Below are positions 5,599 through 11,106 of a stretch of 64,000 bases of DNA, in pieces (positions within the stretch are counted from its first letter, which is position 1; each line of letters opens with the position of its first letter). The position numbers are program-made. The DNA comes from Octopus sinensis (Eukaryota), in contig NC_043014.1 of the NCBI RefSeq assembly GCF_006345805.1, positions 8,122,001-8,186,000 on the forward strand. Reading direction: 5' to 3'.

Positions 5599-8500
5599 GT
5601 ATATATATATATATATATATATCCGTAATAATGAAGGGTGAAATTAATTAATTTGGAAAAATTATCAATTACACCAAGTAGTCTTCGGCATGTAAAAGCC
5701 TCATTCGAGGAAAATTTAAGTAATACTAAGCAATAAGGGTTTAGCAACGAGTTGCCTTACCACATACCGAATTTAGAAATAGCAGTCAAAGGGTTATAGC
5801 TATTTCTTCTACTAAAAAGGGAGATCTCAGTAAAAACAGCATTTGGAAGGCAGACACAAACAGGTAAGAGAGAATGAATTGACTGCAATCTATCATACAT
5901 TTTTTTAGTTATCCACGGACGTACGTTTCGAAATCAAGTTTTTAGGAAAGCATAAGAATTAAATATTAAATATTAAATAATTCTATCTTACCGAAACTTC
6001 TTTTCTCTTCAGCGTAGAATACTATAATCATAAATGATTATATATTGAATTTTGAGATACCAGAAGGCACCAACTCAACTCAGTATCAGAGCGAGCTAGA
6101 ATCCGCAACTGGTATCACCGAATTCAATTTGTGAATGAAACGATTGTGTCAACAGCCCCCTCCCACCCGCGTGTAGCCAAAACAAGATGCTGTGGTCATC
6201 TACTGAGATAAAATATGGTTATCCGTAATAATGAAGGGTGAAATTAATTAATTTGGAAAAATTATCAATTACACCAAGTAGTCTTCGGCATGTAAAAGCC
6301 TCATTCGAGGAAAATTTAAGTAATACTAAGCAATAAGGGTTAGCAACGAGTTGCCTTACCACATACCGAATTTAGAAATAGCAGTCAAAGGGTTATAGCT
6401 ATTTCTCTACTAAAAAGGGAGATCTCAGTAAAAACAGCATTTGGAAGGCAGACACAAACAGGTAAGAGAGAATGAATTGACTGCAATCTATCATACATTT
6501 TTTTAGTTATCCACGGACGTACGTTTCGAAATCAAGTTTTTAGGAAAGCATAAGATTAAATATTAAATATTATAATTCTATCTTACCGAAACTTCTTTTC
6601 TCTTCAGCGTAGAATACTATAATCATAAATGATTATATATTGAATTTTGAGATACCAGAGGCACCAACTCAACTCAGTATCAGAGCGAGCTAGAATCCGC
6701 AACTGGTATCACCGAATTCAATTTGTGAATGAAACGATTGTGTCAACAGCCCCCTCCCACCCGCGTGTAGCCAAAACAAGATGCTGTGTCATCTACTGAG
6801 ATAAAATATGGTTATCCGTAATAATGAAGGGTGAAATTAATTAATTTGGAAAAATTATCAATTACACCAAGTAGTCTTCGCAGGTAAAGCCTCATTCGAG
6901 GAAAATTTAAGTATACTAAGCAATAAGGGTTTAGCAACGAGTTGCCTTACCACATACCGAATTAGAAATAGCAGTCAAAGGGTTATAGCTATTTCTTCTA
7001 CTAAAAAGGGAGATCTCAGTAAAAACAGCATTTGGAAGGCAGACACAAACAGGTAAGAGAGAATGAATTGACTGCAATCTATCATACATTTTTTTAGTTC
7101 CACGGTTAGTAGTTACGTACGTTTCGAAATCAAGTTTTTAGGAAAGCATAAGAATTAAAATTAAATATTAAATAATTCTATCTTACCGAAACTTTTTCTC
7201 TTCAGCGTAGAATACTATAATCATAAATGATTATATATTGAATTTTGAGATACCAGAAGGCACCAACTCAACTCAGTATCAGAGCGAGCTAGAATCCGCA
7301 ACTGGTATCACCGAATTCAATTTGTGAATGAAACGATTGTGTCAACAGCCCCCTCCCACCCGCGTGTAGCCAAAACAAGATGCTGTGGTCATCTACTGAG
7401 ATAAAATATGGTTATCCGTAATAATGAAGGGTGAAATTAATTAATTTGGAAAAATTATCAATTACACCAAGTAGTCTTCGGCATGTAAAAGCCTCATTCG
7501 AGGAAAATTTAAGTAATACTAAGCAATAAGGGTTTAGCAACGAGTTGCCTTACCACATACCGAATTAGAAATAGCAGTCAAAGGGTTATAGCTATTTCTT
7601 CTACTAAAAAGGGAGATCTCAGTAAAAACAGCATTTGGAAGGCAGACACAAACAGGTAAGAGAGAATGAATTGACTGCAATCTATCACACATTTTTTTAG
7701 TTATCCACGGACGTACTTTTCGAAATCAAGTTTTTAGGAAAGCATAAGAATTAAATATTAAATATTAAATAATTCTATCTTACCGAAACTTCTTCTCTTC
7801 AGCGTAGAACATAAATGATTAATATAATGATATATTTGAATTTGATACCAGAAGGCACCAACTCAACTCAGTATCAGAGCGAGCTAGAATCCGCAACTGG
7901 TATCACCGAATTCAATTTGTGAATGAAACGATTGTGTCAACAGCCCCCTCCCACCCGCGTGTAGCCAAAACAAGATGCTGTGGTCATCTACATTTTACTG
8001 AGATCTCCCTTTTTAGTAGAAGAAATAGCTATAACCCTTTGACTGCTATTTCTAAATTCGGTATGTGGTAAGGCAACTCGTTGCTAAACCCTTATTGCTT
8101 AGTATTACTTAAATTTTCCTCGAATGAGGCTTTTACATGCCGAAGACTACTTGGTGTAATGATAATTTTTCCAAATTAATTAATTTCACCCTTCATTATT
8201 ACGGATAACCATTTTATCTCAGTAGATGACCACAGCATCTTGTTTTGGCTACACGCGGGTGGGAGGGGGCTGTTGACACAATCGTTTCATTCACAAATTG
8301 AATTCGGTGATACCAGTTGCGGATTCTAGCTCGCTCTGATACGAGTTGAGTTGGTGCCTTCTGGTATCTCAAAATTCAATATATAATCATTTATGATTAT
8401 AGTATTCTACGCTGAAGAGAAAAGAAGTTTCGGTAAGAGATAGAATTATTTAATATTTAATATTTAATTCTTATGCTTTCCTAAAAACTTGATTTCGAAA

Positions 8501-11072
8501 CGTACGTCCGTGGATAACTAAAAAAATGTGTGATAGATTGCAGTCAATTCATTCTCTCTTACCTGTTGTGTCTGCCTTCCAAATGCTGTTTTTACTGAGA
8601 TCTCCCTTTTTAGTAGAAGAAATAGCTATAACCTTTGACTGCTATTCTAAATTCGGTATGTGGTAAGGCAACTCGTTGCTAAACCCTTATTGCTTAGTAT
8701 TACTTAAATTTTCCTCGAATGAGGCTTTTACATGCCGAAGACTACTTGGTGTAATTGATATTTTTCCAAATTAATTAATTTCACCCTTCATTATTACGGA
8801 TAACCATATTTTATCTCAGTAGATGACCACAGCATCTGTTTTGGCTACACGCGGGTGGGAGGGGCTGTTGACACAATCGTTTCATTCACAAATTGAATCG
8901 TGATACCAGTTGCGGATTCTAGCTCGCTCTGATACTGAGTTGAGTTGGTGCCTTCTGGTATCTCAAAATTCAATATATAATCATTTATGATTATAGTATT
9001 CTACGCTGAAGAGAAAAGAAGTTTCGGTAAGATAGAATTATTTAATATTTAATATTTAATTCTTATGCTTCCTAAAAACTTGATTCGAAACGTACGTCCG
9101 TGGATAACTAAAAAAATGTATGATAGATTGCAGTCAATTCATTCTCTCTTACCTGTTTGTGTCTGCCTTCAAATGCTGTTTTTACTGAGATCTCCCTTTT
9201 TAGTAGAAGAAATAGCTATAACCCTTTGACTGCTATTTCTAAATTCGGTATGTGGTAAGGCAACTCGTTGCTAAACCTTATTGCTTAGTATTACTTAAAT
9301 TTTCCTCGAATGAGGCTTTTACATGCCGAAGACTACTTGGTGTAATTGATAATTTTTCCAAATTAATTATTTCACCCTTCATTATTACGGATAACCATAT
9401 TTTATCTCAGTAGATGACCACAGCATTCTTGTTGGCTATACGCGGGTGGGAGGGGGCTGTTGACACAATCGTTTCATTCACAAATTGAATTCGGTGATAC
9501 CAGTTGCGGATTCTAGCTCGCTCTGATACTGAGTTGAGTTGGTGCCTTCTGGTATCTCAAAATTCAATATATAATCATTTATGATTATAGTATTCTACGC
9601 TGAAGAGAAAAGAAGTTTCGGTAAGATAGAATTATTTAATATTTAATATTTAATTCTTATGCTTTCCTAAAAACTTGATTTCGAAACGTACGTCCGTGGA
9701 TAACTAAAAAAATGTATGATAGATTGCAGTCAATTCATTCTCTCTTACCTGTTTGTGTCTGCCTTCCAAATGCTGTTTTTACTGAGATCTCCCTTTTTAG
9801 TAGAAGAAATAGCTATAACCCTTTGACTGCTATTTCTAAATTCGGTATGTGGTAAGGCAACTCGTTGCTAACCCTTATTGCTTAGTATTACTTAAATTTT
9901 CCTCGAATGAGGCTTTTACATGCCGAAGACTACTTGGTGTAATTGATAATTTTTCCAAATTAATTAATTTCACCTTCATTATTACGGATAACCCATTTTA
10001 TCTCAGTAGATGACCACAGCATCTTGTTTTGGCTACACGCGGGTGGGAGGGGGCTGTTGACACAATCGTTTCATTCACAAATTGAATTCGGTGATACCAG
10101 TTGCGGATTCTAGCTCGCTCTGATACTGAGTTGAGTTGGTGCCTTCTGGTATCTCAAAATTCAATATATAATCATTTATGATTATAGTATTCTACGCTGA
10201 AGAGAAAAGAAGTTTCGGTAAGATAGAATATTTAATATTAATATTTAATTCTTATGCTTTCCTAAAAACTTGATTTCGAAACGTACGTCCGTGGATAACT
10301 AAAAAAATGTATGATAGATTGCAGTCAATTCATTCTCTTTACCTGTTTGTGTCTGCCTTCCAAATGCTGTTTTTACTGAGATCTCCTTTTTAGTAGAAGA
10401 AAAATAGCTAAACCCTTTGACTGCTATTTCTAAATTCGGTATGTGGTAAGGCAACTCGTTGCTAAACCCTATTGCTTAGTATTACTTAAATTTTCCTCGA
10501 ATGAGGCTTTTACATGCCGAAGACTACTTGGTGTAATGATAATTTTCAAAATTAATTAATTTCACCCTTCATTATTACGGATAACCATATTTTATCTCAG
10601 TAGATGACCACAGCATCTTGTTTTGGCTACACGCGTGGGGAGGGGGCTGTGTTGACACAATCGTTTCATTCACAAATGAATTCGGTGATACCAGTTGCGG
10701 ATTCTAGCTCGCTCTGATACTGAGTTGAGTTGGTGCCTTCTGGTATCTCAAAATTCAATATATAATCATTATGATTATAGTATTCTACGCTGAAGAGAAA
10801 AGTTTCGGTAAGATAGAATTATTTAATATTAATATTTAATTCTTATGCTTTCCTAAAAACTTGATTTCGAAACGTACGTCCGTGGATAACTAAAAAAATG
10901 TATGATAGATTGCAGTCAATTCATTCTCTCTTACCTGTTTGTGTCTGCCTTCCAAATGCTGTTTGTACTGAGATCTCCCTATTTAGTAGAAGAAATAGCT
11001 ATAACCCTTTGACTGCTATTTCTAAATTCGGTATGTGGTAAGGCAACTCGTTGCTAAACCCTTATTGCTTAG

Positions 11073-11106
<34 letters not shown>

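What the first reader, a model, noticed from the sequence alone, without database searches (positions are those of the whole stretch)
5621..11075. 5.5 kb tandem-inverted array of ~600 bp hammerhead ribozyme units: candidate cephalopod retrozyme
Seen: about nine near-identical non-coding units, about 4 in one orientation and about 5 inverted, 3' ends pointing outward into (TA)n. Seven units carry a complete type I hammerhead (CUGAAGA, long stem II, GAAA, palindromic stem III ACGUACGU, GUC triplet, stem I). Known: Penelope-like elements carry minimal hammerheads in their pLTRs, palindromic stem III favours dimeric cleavage between tandem copies, and animal non-LTR retrozymes are hammerhead tandem repeats yielding circular RNAs. 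Inference: transcripts self-cleave to ~600 nt monomers or circles that a Penelope RT copies repeatedly into long concatemers. Single-base indels between units look like long-read error, so copy number is uncertain.
Basis: partly seen in the sequence, partly recalled or inferred. Interest (0 to 1): 0.85.

Follow-up and report, generated by a model that had tools for sequence, protein, structure and literature searches.

The report
Hammerhead-ribozyme retroelement array, Penelope-style insertion
A 5.5 kb head-to-head block of about nine near-identical 598-base non-coding repeats, each carrying a hammerhead self-cleaving RNA motif, sits inside a TA microsatellite and looks like a young insertion of a known kind of parasitic element (an animal "retrozyme") copied in by Penelope-like retrotransposon machinery.

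Summary
Window 5623-7991 carries 3.95 units on the minus strand and 7993-11075 carries 5.15 units on the plus strand. The unit is about 598 nt, and the 3' ends point outward into (TA)n. Seven of nine ribozyme sites are complete type I hammerheads. Two diverged relatives elsewhere in the window keep the motif with compensatory stem changes.

The window holds five more insertions of the same superfamily (B-F). Eleven of 12 insertion ends abut (TA)n. Arms end at two fixed internal sites about 100 nt apart, and four of five two-armed insertions use one site per arm. Published Penelope-like element (PLE) work describes the same kind of anatomy:
- tandem plus inverted 5'-truncated copies;
- a "tail" at one end;
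- AT-rich targets;
- both DNA strands cut and extended.

I read this as a non-autonomous, PLE-mobilised hammerhead retroelement, a non-LTR retrozyme: a new member of a known kind. No RNA-level step was tested (cleavage, circles, rolling-circle copying). Also untested:
- the cephalopod origin;
- read support;
- the autonomous partner.

Indels outnumber substitutions 98:12 between units, so the copy number is soft.

The parts
5565..5622 (.). (TA)n microsatellite, left half of the target
   Evidence: TRF period 2, 29 copies; abuts the minus arm
5623..7991 (-). Minus-sense arm, 3.95 units. It is 5'-truncated at unit position 313 (window 7991). Its 3' end is at unit position about 298 ('site 2') at window 5623.
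7992..7992 (.). Single unassigned A at the head-to-head junction
   Evidence: BLAST arms end at 7991 and start at 7993; junction read
7993..11075 (+). Plus-sense arm, 5.15 units. It is 5'-truncated at unit position 83 (window 7993). Its 3' end is at unit position about 198 ('site 1') at window 11075.
11076..11104 (.). (TA)n microsatellite, right half of the target
   Evidence: TRF period 2, 14.5 copies, 100% matches
8412..8508 (+). Complete type I hammerhead, from CUGAAGA to C17, predicted cut after 8508. Helix I adds 6 nt on each side.
9006..9098 (+). Complete hammerhead, predicted cut after 9098
9600..9694 (+). Complete hammerhead, predicted cut after 9694. This is the copy that was folded and sent to Rfam.
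10197..10289 (+). Complete hammerhead, predicted cut after 10289
10790..10880 (+). Complete hammerhead, predicted cut after 10880
5918..6012 (-). Complete hammerhead on the minus strand
6516..6607 (-). Complete hammerhead on the minus strand
7110..7205 (-). Damaged hammerhead. A 9-nt insertion and a 2-nt loss lie at the cleavage site and the 3' strand of helix I.
   Evidence: missed by both descriptors
7710..7802 (-). Damaged hammerhead. C15.2 is changed to A, which breaks the helix III palindrome. The hairpin upstream of helix I (about 7800-7845) is rearranged.
9777..9990 (+). One example of the 3' module (unit positions about 81-298), the part shared with insertions B-F. It holds the conserved hairpin just before end site 1.
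17368..17540 (-). Insertion F. The minus arm ends at site 2. A plus arm of about 30 nt ends about 15 nt past site 1. (TA)n lies on both sides.
39455..39530 (-). Insertion D. A single, heavily 5'-truncated arm ends at unit position about 186, inside (TA)n.
49168..49800 (+). Insertion B, with head-to-head arms joined at about 49425. The minus arm ends at site 1 and the plus arm at site 2. Its hammerhead lies at 49436-49506.
53746..54072 (-). Insertion E. It has inverted arms that both end at site 2. (TA)n lies on the left only.
57231..58141 (+). Insertion C. A short minus arm ends at site 1. A plus arm of about 1.3 units (period about 578 nt) ends at site 2. Its hammerhead lies at 57780-57829.

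Best explanation
The array is one young insertion of a non-coding, non-autonomous retroelement. Its 598-nt unit carries a type I hammerhead ribozyme, so it is an animal 'non-LTR retrozyme'. I think it was integrated by the reverse transcriptase/endonuclease of a Penelope-like element (PLE) encoded elsewhere in the genome.

Shown here:
- the unit, the ribozyme motif and its covariation;
- a strand-specific, highly paired RNA fold;
- a conserved 3' module (unit positions about 81-298) shared with five other insertions in the window;
- insertion into (TA)n;
- head-to-head 5'-truncated arms;
- two fixed 3' end sites about 100 nt apart.

Inferred steps:
1. A tandem source copy is transcribed into multi-unit RNA.
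2. Neighbouring hammerheads may pair through the ACGUACGU palindrome into a double hammerhead. They would cut after GUC and release 598-nt monomers that could be circularised.
3. A PLE protein binds the 3' module and cuts both strands of a (TA)n tract.
4. It starts reverse transcription on each strand at one of two internal RNA sites. Site 1 lies just after a conserved hairpin. Site 2 lies about 100 nt further 3'. This leaves the intervening 'tail' on only one arm.
5. Each cDNA runs 5'-ward through several units.
6. The two cDNA 3' ends are joined head to head. Here the join lies at the foot of the only long-range 9-bp helix of the unit RNA.

For step 5 I slightly favour a multi-unit read-through transcript over a rolling circle as template. 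The sequence does not decide this.
For: **Hammerhead**
- Seven of nine sites are complete.
- The relaxed descriptor finds 9 sites in the window: 7 in the array, plus B and C. None of 200 random sequences gave a site.
- On the A/B/C alignment, 95.1% of 41 cells pair and 7 of 14 pairs change on both sides. Helix I has 5 of 6 such pairs. No shuffle of 500 reaches this, and slid controls pair 16-46%.
- The minimum-energy fold of the 131-nt segment reproduces helices I and II.
- Rfam Hammerhead_1 is the top match over the whole model for A and for C when only the segment is searched (17.8 bits each).
- The homodimer folds at -57.2 kcal/mol against 2 x -22.4, with an 8-bp intermolecular helix III.

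**RNA-like unit**
- The sense strand folds at -166.6 kcal/mol (z -6.3, 0 of 100 shuffles as good). The antisense strand folds at -129.8 (z -2.9).
- As a circle it folds at -161.4 kcal/mol with 65% of bases paired.
- GC content is 35%, and no ATG ORF exceeds 54 aa.
- A long-range helix that brackets the ribozyme is present in both A and C with different sequences.

**PLE-type insertion**
- A profile of the 3' module finds 18 matches, 10 in the array and 8 in five other loci.
- Eleven of 12 insertion ends abut (TA) runs of at least 5 repeats. The script found 10, and the end of C is seen. The chance rate is 3.1%.
- Arms end at unit positions about 186-198 or about 290-300.
- A, B, C and F (4 of 5 two-armed insertions) have one arm at each site.
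- Published PLE traits match. These are partial tandems, an adjacent inverted 5'-truncated copy, a tail at one end, microsatellite/(TA)n bias and hammerheads in the repeated part (PMC8557442).
- In vitro, both strands are cleaved and extended, cleavage prefers AT-rich DNA, and two internal RT start sites define the tail (PMC11167929).
- Retrozymes have been argued to be non-autonomous PLE derivatives (preprint 10.64898/2026.07.22.740005; PMC7229834).

**Junction**
- The arms start at unit positions 313 and 83.
- The only long-range 9-nt inverted repeat of the unit is 86-94/307-315. It is paired in the predicted fold.
Against: - Rfam gives no hammerhead at gathering score. It gives none at E<=10 when 5.9 kb is searched. 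The narrow-window matches reach 17.8 bits against a cut-off of 34. B gives no hammerhead match at all.
- The folding energy of the 131-nt ribozyme segment alone is unremarkable (z -1.49; 18 of 200 shuffles fold as well).
- B and C have a mismatch at the 10.1/11.1 pair, a pair described as highly conserved in PMC4209133.
- The covariation rests on three sequences.
- The 'tail' here is about 100 nt, not the printed 30-40 bp.
- E has both arms at site 2.
- No PLE ORF is in the window. The one RVT_1 fragment (40147-40626) showed no GIY-YIG match, and I did not classify it further.
- For the long-range helix in A, the best of 300 shuffles (-35.8) matches the real value (-35.1).
- The innermost partial units of the two arms differ from each other. 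This does not fit two copies of one and the same template unit.
- No RNA, read or genome-wide data could be examined.
Confidence: 0.7

Rival explanations
1. The rolling-circle version. Transcripts self-cleave and are ligated into a 598-nt circle. A PLE reverse transcriptase primed on both strands of the (TA)n target goes round the circle four to five times per arm.
For: - This is the model proposed for metazoan retrozymes (PMC7229834 discussion).
- The monomer fold brings its two ends together in helix I.
- The units are nearly identical, with 12 substitutions in 5402 aligned positions.
- Arms longer than one unit contain intact, uncut ribozyme sites, in A and in C.
Against: - Intact internal sites are equally expected from uncleaved multimers.
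- In the one PLE tested in vitro, ribozyme mutants inserted normally and unprocessed RNA was the dominant substrate.
- A T-to-G substitution occurs in only one unit of each arm, the innermost complete unit of both. A single circle would give the same base in every unit of an arm.
Confidence: 0.3
2. Growth at the DNA level. A small PLE-type insertion like B-F was later expanded by unequal crossing-over or replication slippage. Alternatively, the inverted arm arose by fold-back template switching during replication. On this view the number of units says nothing about the RNA template.
For: - The other five insertions hold at most 1.3 units per arm.
- Both inner breakpoints lie within 3 nt of the two halves of a 9-nt inverted repeat, as in microhomology-mediated fold-back events.
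- The shared G variant sits in mirror position in the two arms.
Against: - The junction does not use the microhomology. The sequence between the arms is not the one predicted from annealing at the 9-mer.
- The arms are unequal and end at the two canonical sites, so the outer ends are primary insertion ends.
- Unequal crossing-over cannot homogenise inverted arms against each other, yet both arms are nearly identical.
Confidence: 0.2
3. Assembly artefact. The inverted structure or the copy number comes from a chimeric or fold-back long read, or from a collapsed or expanded repeat.
For: - Indels outnumber substitutions 98 to 12, and 45 of 60 deletions are in homopolymers. The region therefore looks poorly polished.
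- Complex PLE insertions are known to trouble assemblies (PMC8557442).
Against: - The flanks are two different interspersed repeats, not mirror images.
- The arms differ in length and end at different unit positions, which are the two sites used by independent insertions.
- Four other diverged insertions show the same inverted architecture at small scale.
Confidence: 0.1
4. The hammerhead is a dead relic. The element is a PLE-derived or SINE-like repeat whose motif no longer cleaves and plays no part in its spread.
For: - PLE hammerheads cleave poorly in vitro (PMC4209133).
- Cleavage was dispensable for insertion in vitro.
- B and C have mismatched 10.1/11.1 pairs.
- Rfam scores are below threshold.
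Against: - The core, helix I and the helix III palindrome are kept across three families whose flanks have diverged to 67-81% identity, with compensatory changes.
- The youngest family (A) has the canonical G10.1-C11.1 pair.
Confidence: 0.15

Closest known systems
Metazoan non-LTR retrozymes (Cervera & de la Pena 2020, PMC7229834; Li, Clavereau & Pollet 2026 preprint 10.64898/2026.07.22.740005)
   Same: - Non-coding, AT-rich, head-to-tail repeats.
- Each unit carries a type I hammerhead.
- The unit RNA is highly self-paired.
- PLEs are the proposed mobilisers.
- The unit length of 598 nt lies within the 51-972 bp range given in the preprint.
   Different: - The unit is longer than the 150-450 bp repeats and 170-400 nt circles of the 2020 paper.
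- Helix II carries an extension of about 60 nt in place of a terminal loop 2.
- The array is head-to-head inverted. 'Inverted' does not occur in the main text of the 2020 paper.
- Expression and circles were not tested here.
Penelope-like element insertions and pseudo-LTRs (Craig et al. 2021, PMC8557442; Frangieh et al. 2024, PMC11167929)
   Same: - Partial tandems.
- An adjacent inverted 5'-truncated copy.
- An extension present at one end only, explained by two internal RT start sites.
- AT-rich or (TA)n targets.
- A hammerhead in the repeated part.
   Different: - There is no RT/GIY-YIG ORF, so the element is non-autonomous.
- The 'tail' is about 100 nt instead of 30-40 bp.
- There are up to five full units per arm, rather than one body plus a pseudo-LTR.
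- Homology to an autonomous PLE was not tested.
PLE minimal hammerheads and canonical metazoan type I hammerheads (Cervera & de la Pena 2014, PMC4209133; Rfam RF00163)
   Same: - The CUGANGA/GAAA core.
- A short palindromic helix III that can extend to 8 bp in a dimer.
- Helix I of 6 bp and helix II of 4 bp up to the first loop, as printed for canonical metazoan motifs.
- The Rfam consensus helix III (ACGcgCGU) is of the same type.
   Different: - Below the Rfam gathering score.
- Loop 2 is an internal loop that leads into a long arm.
- B and C carry an unpaired 10.1/11.1 position.
Hammerhead-bearing satellite or SINE-like repeats of newts and schistosomes. The newt satellite is mentioned in PMC7229834. 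The schistosome repeat is named from memory.
   Same: Tandem or dispersed short non-coding repeats with a type I hammerhead that works best as a dimer.
   Different: Here the dispersed copies show target-primed insertion signatures, namely (TA)n targets, 5' truncation and inverted arms. No sequence relationship was tested.

Membership tests
Hammerhead ribozyme, type I (Rfam RF00163) | Conserved core: C3-U4-G5-A6-N7-G8-A9, G12-A13-A14, A15.1-U16.1, and a non-G at position 17 | tested here: met
   Seven of nine array sites, plus the sites in B and C. N7 is A, U or C, and position 17 is C, A or U.
Hammerhead ribozyme, type I (Rfam RF00163) | Three helices around the core, with helix I open, supported by covariation | tested here: met
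   95.1% of 41 cells are paired. Seven of 14 pairs change on both sides. No shuffle of 500 reaches this. Only three sequences were available.
Hammerhead ribozyme, type I (Rfam RF00163) | Score at or above the curated Rfam gathering threshold (34 bits) | tested here: not met
   No match. The narrow-window matches reach 17.8 bits for A and C. B gives none. The alignment shows a 72-nt insertion in helix II.
Hammerhead ribozyme, type I (Rfam RF00163) | G10.1-C11.1 closing pair of helix II | tested here: inconclusive
   G-C in family A. A/C in B and A/A in C.
Hammerhead ribozyme, type I (Rfam RF00163) | Site-specific self-cleavage | not testable with these tools
   Needs in vitro transcription of monomer and dimer.
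Metazoan non-LTR retrozyme | Type I hammerhead in each unit of a head-to-tail tandem repeat (dimer or more) | tested here: met
   Five sites on the plus arm and four on the minus arm, at 590-600-nt spacing.
Metazoan non-LTR retrozyme | Non-coding | tested here: met
   No ATG ORF longer than 54 aa in 5600-11100.
Metazoan non-LTR retrozyme | No LTR, primer-binding site or polypurine tract | not tested
   I did not search for a primer-binding site or a polypurine tract.
Metazoan non-LTR retrozyme | Low GC content (below about 45-50%) | tested here: met
   35% GC.
Metazoan non-LTR retrozyme | Monomer of a few hundred bases | tested here: inconclusive
   598 nt lies outside the 150-450 bp of PMC7229834 and inside the 51-972 bp of the 2026 preprint.
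Metazoan non-LTR retrozyme | Highly self-paired unit RNA | tested here: met
   z -6.3 for the sense strand against -2.9 for the antisense strand. As a circle, 65% of bases are paired.
Metazoan non-LTR retrozyme | Expressed as linear and circular unit-length RNA | not testable with these tools
   No transcriptome data available.
PLE-type insertion (PLE-mobilised element) | Partial tandem copies (pseudo-LTR arrangement) | tested here: met
   A has 4-5 units per arm. C has 1.3 units.
PLE-type insertion (PLE-mobilised element) | Adjacent inverted 5'-truncated copy | tested here: met
   Seen in A, B, C, E and F, which is 5 of 6 insertions.
PLE-type insertion (PLE-mobilised element) | Two internal RT start sites, giving a 'tail' at one end only | tested here: met
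   One arm at each site in 4 of 5 two-armed insertions. E has both arms at site 2. The tail is about 100 nt rather than the printed 30-40 bp.
PLE-type insertion (PLE-mobilised element) | AT-rich or microsatellite target | tested here: met
   Eleven of 12 ends abut (TA) runs of at least 5 repeats, against 3.1% by chance.
PLE-type insertion (PLE-mobilised element) | ORF with an RT and a GIY-YIG endonuclease (autonomous PLE) | tested here: not met
   There is none in the element. Of the 10 ORFs scanned, only an RVT_1 fragment was found, with no GIY-YIG. I therefore file the element as non-autonomous, not as a PLE proper.
PLE-type insertion (PLE-mobilised element) | 3' module shared with an autonomous PLE of the same genome | not testable with these tools
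   No eukaryotic genome collection was available.

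The most novel reading that the evidence does not exclude
The array is a frozen product of one event. A dimeric PLE enzyme cut both strands of a (TA)n tract and primed at two different internal sites. It reverse-transcribed a 598-nt hammerhead circular RNA round and round on each strand. 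The two cDNAs then joined where a 9-bp helix of the template RNA brought their ends together. That would be a direct genomic footprint tying retrozyme circles to PLE target-primed reverse transcription. The product is a spacer-less palindrome with arms of 2.4 and 3.1 kb, which could also feed hairpin RNA into small-RNA silencing of the family.
Probability: 0.25. Interest if true: 0.65.

Novelty: new member of a known kind. Interest (0 to 1): 0.42.

Why it matters
Animal retrozymes have been linked to Penelope-like elements by co-occurrence and, in a 2026 preprint, by sequence relatedness in frogs. In this window the link shows in the insertion anatomy itself: (TA)n targets, paired inverted arms, and two fixed reverse-transcription start sites with the intervening tail on one arm.

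If the family is active, it offers three things:
- a compact system of a 598-nt RNA and a defined 3' module for asking what a PLE enzyme recognises;
- a way to ask whether ribozyme cleavage or circularisation matters for mobility;
- a way to see how the two cDNAs are joined.

The near-identity of the units suggests the family is active or was recently.

My four library searches found no paper describing hammerhead retrozymes in cephalopods. The library is partial, supplements were closed, and the cephalopod origin of the window is itself untested.

Tried and rejected
- **Rfam, whole window at gathering score, and 5400-11300 at E<=10.** Neither gave a hammerhead. The matches listed were microRNA and snoRNA noise on the (TA)n tract and AT-rich stretches. 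Searching only the ribozyme segments gave sub-threshold Hammerhead_1 matches for A and C and none for B.
- **Tandem Repeats Finder.** It did not report the 598-nt period; its longest period is 500.
- **MAFFT alignment of whole units of A against C (alignment A1).** The first 300 or so columns align, but the ribozyme half is misaligned. I did not use it for structure counts. Instead I tested the long-range helix by duplex folding and the ribozyme on a short alignment.
- **First variant count.** It crashed, and alignment shifts inflated the deletions and substitutions. An edit-distance count replaced it.
- **Script check of (TA)n flanks.** I set the left end of C about 7 nt too far left, so the script reported 10 of 12. 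The run next to C is visible.
- **Mirror-image arms.** Only one substitution (G at alignment column 25, in units 8509-9098 and 7110-7709) is shared in mirror position. The other shared differences are homopolymer-length changes. This is too little to decide the question.
- **Annealing at the 9-nt inverted repeat.** It does not predict the observed junction sequence. I keep only the observation that both breakpoints lie within 3 nt of its halves. My own arithmetic puts the chance of that at roughly 1 in 1000.
- **ARAGORN.** It found no tRNA gene, so I do not call the flanking repeats tRNA-derived.
- **Pfam on 10 ORFs, chosen from the 73 stop-to-stop ORFs of at least 100 aa.** There was one RVT_1 fragment and one peroxidase exon. 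The hits of protein 8 are all below their cut-offs. No PLE was found.
- **Not done.** I ran no search of any eukaryotic genome, read set or transcriptome, because none was offered. The prokaryote genome collection, and the phage, plasmid and E. coli collections, were not searched because they cannot bear on this. I made no protein structure or complex jobs.
- **Unchecked because closed.** The search for homologous proteins, the search of protein representatives, metagenome contigs, viral contigs and the supplementary files of papers. The supplements of PMC7229834 and PMC8557442 may list cephalopod hammerheads or PLE consensus sequences.
- **Papers, and what I saw of each.**
  - 10.64898/2026.07.22.740005: abstract and Results part 1.
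  - PMC8557442: passages.
  - PMC7229834: passages.
  - PMC4209133: passages.
  - PMC11167929: abstract and the whole Main text.

Full report
**What is there**

The window has no N. BLAST of one unit (9099-9694) against the window gives 11 contiguous matches between 5620 and 11077. Five are on the minus strand, ending at 7991. Six are on the plus strand, starting at 7993.

Cut at the predicted ribozyme cleavage sites, the pieces are:
- minus arm: 282 (partial), 600, 594, 598 and 295 (partial) nt;
- plus arm: 517 (partial), 590, 596, 595, 591 and 195 (partial) nt.

This is 3.95 and 5.15 units of about 598 nt. Read in the ribozyme sense, both arms run outward from the centre. Their 3' ends stop directly at (TA)n tracts, 5565-5622 and 11076-11104.

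**How alike the units are**

I compared each piece with unit 5918-6515. The pieces show 5402 matches, 60 deletions, 38 insertions and 12 substitutions. Forty-five of the 60 deletions lie in homopolymers, where half of the positions lie.

Indels outnumbering substitutions eight to one is the signature of an unpolished long-read consensus, not of divergence. By substitutions the units are about 0.2% apart. The array is therefore either very young or homogenised, and its exact copy number should not be trusted without reads.

**The ribozyme**

Each unit has these elements in the order of a type I hammerhead:
- CUGAAGA;
- a helix II that opens with G-C and three A-U pairs, then an internal loop and an arm of about 60 nt;
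- GAAA;
- the palindrome ACGUACGU;
- C17;
- a 6-bp helix I, followed by an internal loop and four more pairs.

Descriptor scans:
- A strict descriptor finds 7 sites in the window, all in the array. Random sequences give 0.02 sites per 64 kb (100 sequences).
- The remaining two of the nine sites are damaged. One has a 9-nt insertion at the cleavage site (about 7110). The other has C15.2 changed to A (7710).
- A second descriptor allows an unpaired position at the base of helix II but demands a fully palindromic helix III and at least 5 bp in helix I. It finds 9 sites: the same 7, plus one at 49436-49506 and one at 57780-57829. None of 200 random sequences gave a site.

Those two extra sites lie in diverged relatives of the unit (see below). 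All three families differ in helix I (UCUACG/CGUGGA, CCCAUG/CAUGGG, UUUGGG/CUCAAA). On their alignment:
- 95.1% of 41 cells pair;
- 7 of 14 pairs change on both sides, including 5 of 6 in helix I;
- no shuffle of 500 reaches this;
- sliding the partners drops pairing to 16-46%.

Folding:
- The minimum-energy fold of the 131-nt segment reproduces helices I and II.
- The hammerhead-constrained fold is 1.1 kcal/mol above the minimum.
- Two copies fold together at -57.2 kcal/mol against 2 x -22.4, with the palindromes forming an 8-bp intermolecular helix III. This is the double-hammerhead arrangement described for tandem metazoan and PLE motifs (PMC4209133).

Results against the ribozyme:
- Rfam reports nothing at gathering score, and nothing at E<=10 over 5.9 kb.
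- When only the segments are searched, Hammerhead_1 is the best match over its whole length for A and for C. The score is 17.8 bits against a cut-off of 34. B gives no match.
- The segment's folding energy alone is ordinary (z -1.49).
- B and C have A/C and A/A at the 10.1/11.1 position.

I conclude that the motif is a real, conserved hammerhead with an unusually long helix II. Cleavage is untested.

**The unit as an RNA**

- In the ribozyme sense the unit folds at -166.6 kcal/mol (z -6.3; 0 of 100 shuffles as good). The antisense strand folds at -129.8 (z -2.9).
- As a circle it folds at -161.4 kcal/mol with 65% of bases paired.
- In the linear monomer the two ends meet in helix I.
- A long-range helix bracketing the ribozyme is present in A at -35.1 kcal/mol (shuffles -24.1 +/- 3.5, best -35.8). 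In C it is far stronger, at -51.0 (shuffles -22.5 +/- 3.8), with a different sequence.
- GC content is 35%. No ATG ORF exceeds 54 aa.

These are the properties printed for retrozyme RNAs (PMC7229834).

**Relatives in the same window**

This is the most informative result. BLAST and a profile of unit positions about 81-298 (18 matches, 10 in the array) reveal five further insertions:
- F, 17368-17540;
- D, 39455-39530;
- B, 49168-49800;
- E, 53746-54072;
- C, 57231-58141.

They are 67-87% identical to A over this 3' module. I read them base by base.

- **Inverted arms.** Five of the six insertions (all but D) consist of two head-to-head, 5'-truncated arms with their 3' ends outward.
- **Target.** Eleven of 12 ends abut a (TA) run of at least 5 repeats. 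The script found 10, and the left end of C is seen. Only 3.1% of random positions do so.
- **Two end sites.** Arms end at only two places in the unit. Site 1 is about position 186-198, just after a conserved hairpin that shows two covarying pairs. Site 2 is about position 290-300.
- **One site per arm.** In A, B, C and F one arm ends at each site. E has both arms at site 2.
- **More than one unit.** The plus arm of C runs through more than one unit (period about 578 nt). Templates longer than a unit are therefore not unique to A.

**Comparison with what is printed**

Craig et al. 2021 (passages) describe PLE insertions as follows:
- 5'-truncated partial tandems that form pseudo-LTRs;
- often an inverted 5'-truncated copy alongside;
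- a 30-40-bp 'tail' often at one end only;
- hammerheads in the pseudo-LTRs of canonical PLEs;
- a microsatellite bias, with (TA)n as the preferred target of Naiads.

Frangieh et al. 2024 (whole main text) studied a purified anole PLE protein and showed that:
- it cleaves and extends both DNA strands;
- it prefers AT-rich DNA;
- it starts reverse transcription at two adjacent internal RNA sites, whose spacing is the 'tail';
- ribozyme mutants insert normally, and unprocessed RNA is the main template.

Cervera & de la Pena 2020 proposed PLEs as the mobilisers of tandem hammerhead repeats through circular RNA. A 2026 preprint argues from vertebrate genomes that retrozymes are non-autonomous PLE derivatives.

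The anatomy here matches these PLE features one by one. Two things differ. The 'tail' is about 100 nt. And the element has no ORF, with no PLE ORF found among the 10 window ORFs scanned.

**The central junction**

The minus arm begins at unit position 313 (window 7991). One A follows (7992). The plus arm begins at position 83 (7993).

The unit has four distinct perfect inverted repeats of at least 9 nt. Only one is long-range, at 86-94/307-315, and it is paired in the predicted fold. Both breakpoints lie within 3 nt of its two halves.

Simple annealing at the repeat does not predict the junction sequence. I therefore suggest, as inference only, that this RNA helix held the two cDNA ends together when they were joined.

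Position 81-83 is also where similarity to the other families begins.

One T-to-G substitution is found only in the innermost complete unit of each arm. That is hard to get from one homogeneous circle. It is easy to get from a multi-unit transcript of a slightly heterogeneous source, or from later conversion between the arms. The innermost partial units, however, differ from each other, so the point is not settled.

**Verdict**

- The array is a real-looking, young insertion of a non-autonomous hammerhead retroelement of the retrozyme kind. It bears the marks of PLE-type two-strand target-primed reverse transcription into (TA)n. My confidence is about 0.7.
- A fold-back artefact is unlikely. 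The flanks are two different interspersed repeats. The arms are unequal and end at the two canonical sites. Four other insertions repeat the inverted architecture.
- 'Cephalopod' was not tested.
- I rate this a new member of a known kind. Its added value is that the insertion anatomy supports the PLE-retrozyme link directly.

**Limits**

- No eukaryotic genome, read or RNA data could be searched.
- The family's copy number, its autonomous partner and its expression therefore remain unchecked.

Noticed in passing
window 17368-17540, 39455-39530, 49168-49800, 53746-54072, 57231-58141: Five more insertions of the same superfamily share the 3' module at 67-87% identity. Nearly all lie in (TA)n. 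Four have inverted arms, and two keep a hammerhead. That makes six insertions in 64 kb, so the family is probably very abundant in this genome.
   Followed up: yes
window 7688-7692 and 8527-8531 (alignment column 25): The same T-to-G substitution occurs only in the innermost complete unit of each arm, in mirror position. I have no explanation. It could reflect a shared template unit or conversion between the arms.
   Followed up: partly
window 7800-7845: In the innermost minus-arm unit, the palindromic hairpin just upstream of helix I is rearranged relative to all other units. This could be real, or a consensus error at a hairpin.
   Followed up: no
window 40147-42168 (+): A decayed reverse-transcriptase-bearing element. 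Pfam gives RVT_1 at 40147-40626 (E 1.7e-07), and further open frames follow with frameshifts. A tetranucleotide-repeat tract follows at about 42250-42400. No GIY-YIG match was seen. It looks LINE-like to me from memory, and I did not classify it.
   Followed up: partly
window 42911-43381 (-): An open frame matches Pfam An_peroxidase (animal haem peroxidase, E 1.8e-20, profile positions 209-360 of 530). It is probably an exon of a host gene about 32 kb from the array.
   Followed up: no
window 5190-5560 and 11105-11320: Both flanks of the array are interspersed repeats. The left one has 12 further matches in the window at 70-85% identity. The right one has 17 at 73-93%. Each abuts the (TA)n tract, so the array sits in a microsatellite shared by two older repeats. 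ARAGORN finds no tRNA gene in the window.
   Followed up: partly
window 24088-25063: A 27-nt minisatellite of 36.5 copies (95% matches) overlaps trinucleotide arrays. It explains the long 'ORFs' open in all six frames at 23318-25211. Similar low-complexity blocks lie at about 33545-34514, 58113-58572, 59481-60903 and 62950-63999.
   Followed up: partly
window 49283-49330 versus 49520-49580: The two arms of insertion B are near-identical except for a cluster of about 10 differences in about 55 nt. The cluster lies in the stretch just 3' of the ribozyme. This is my reading by eye. It suggests either two different template RNAs or a hypervariable segment.
   Followed up: no
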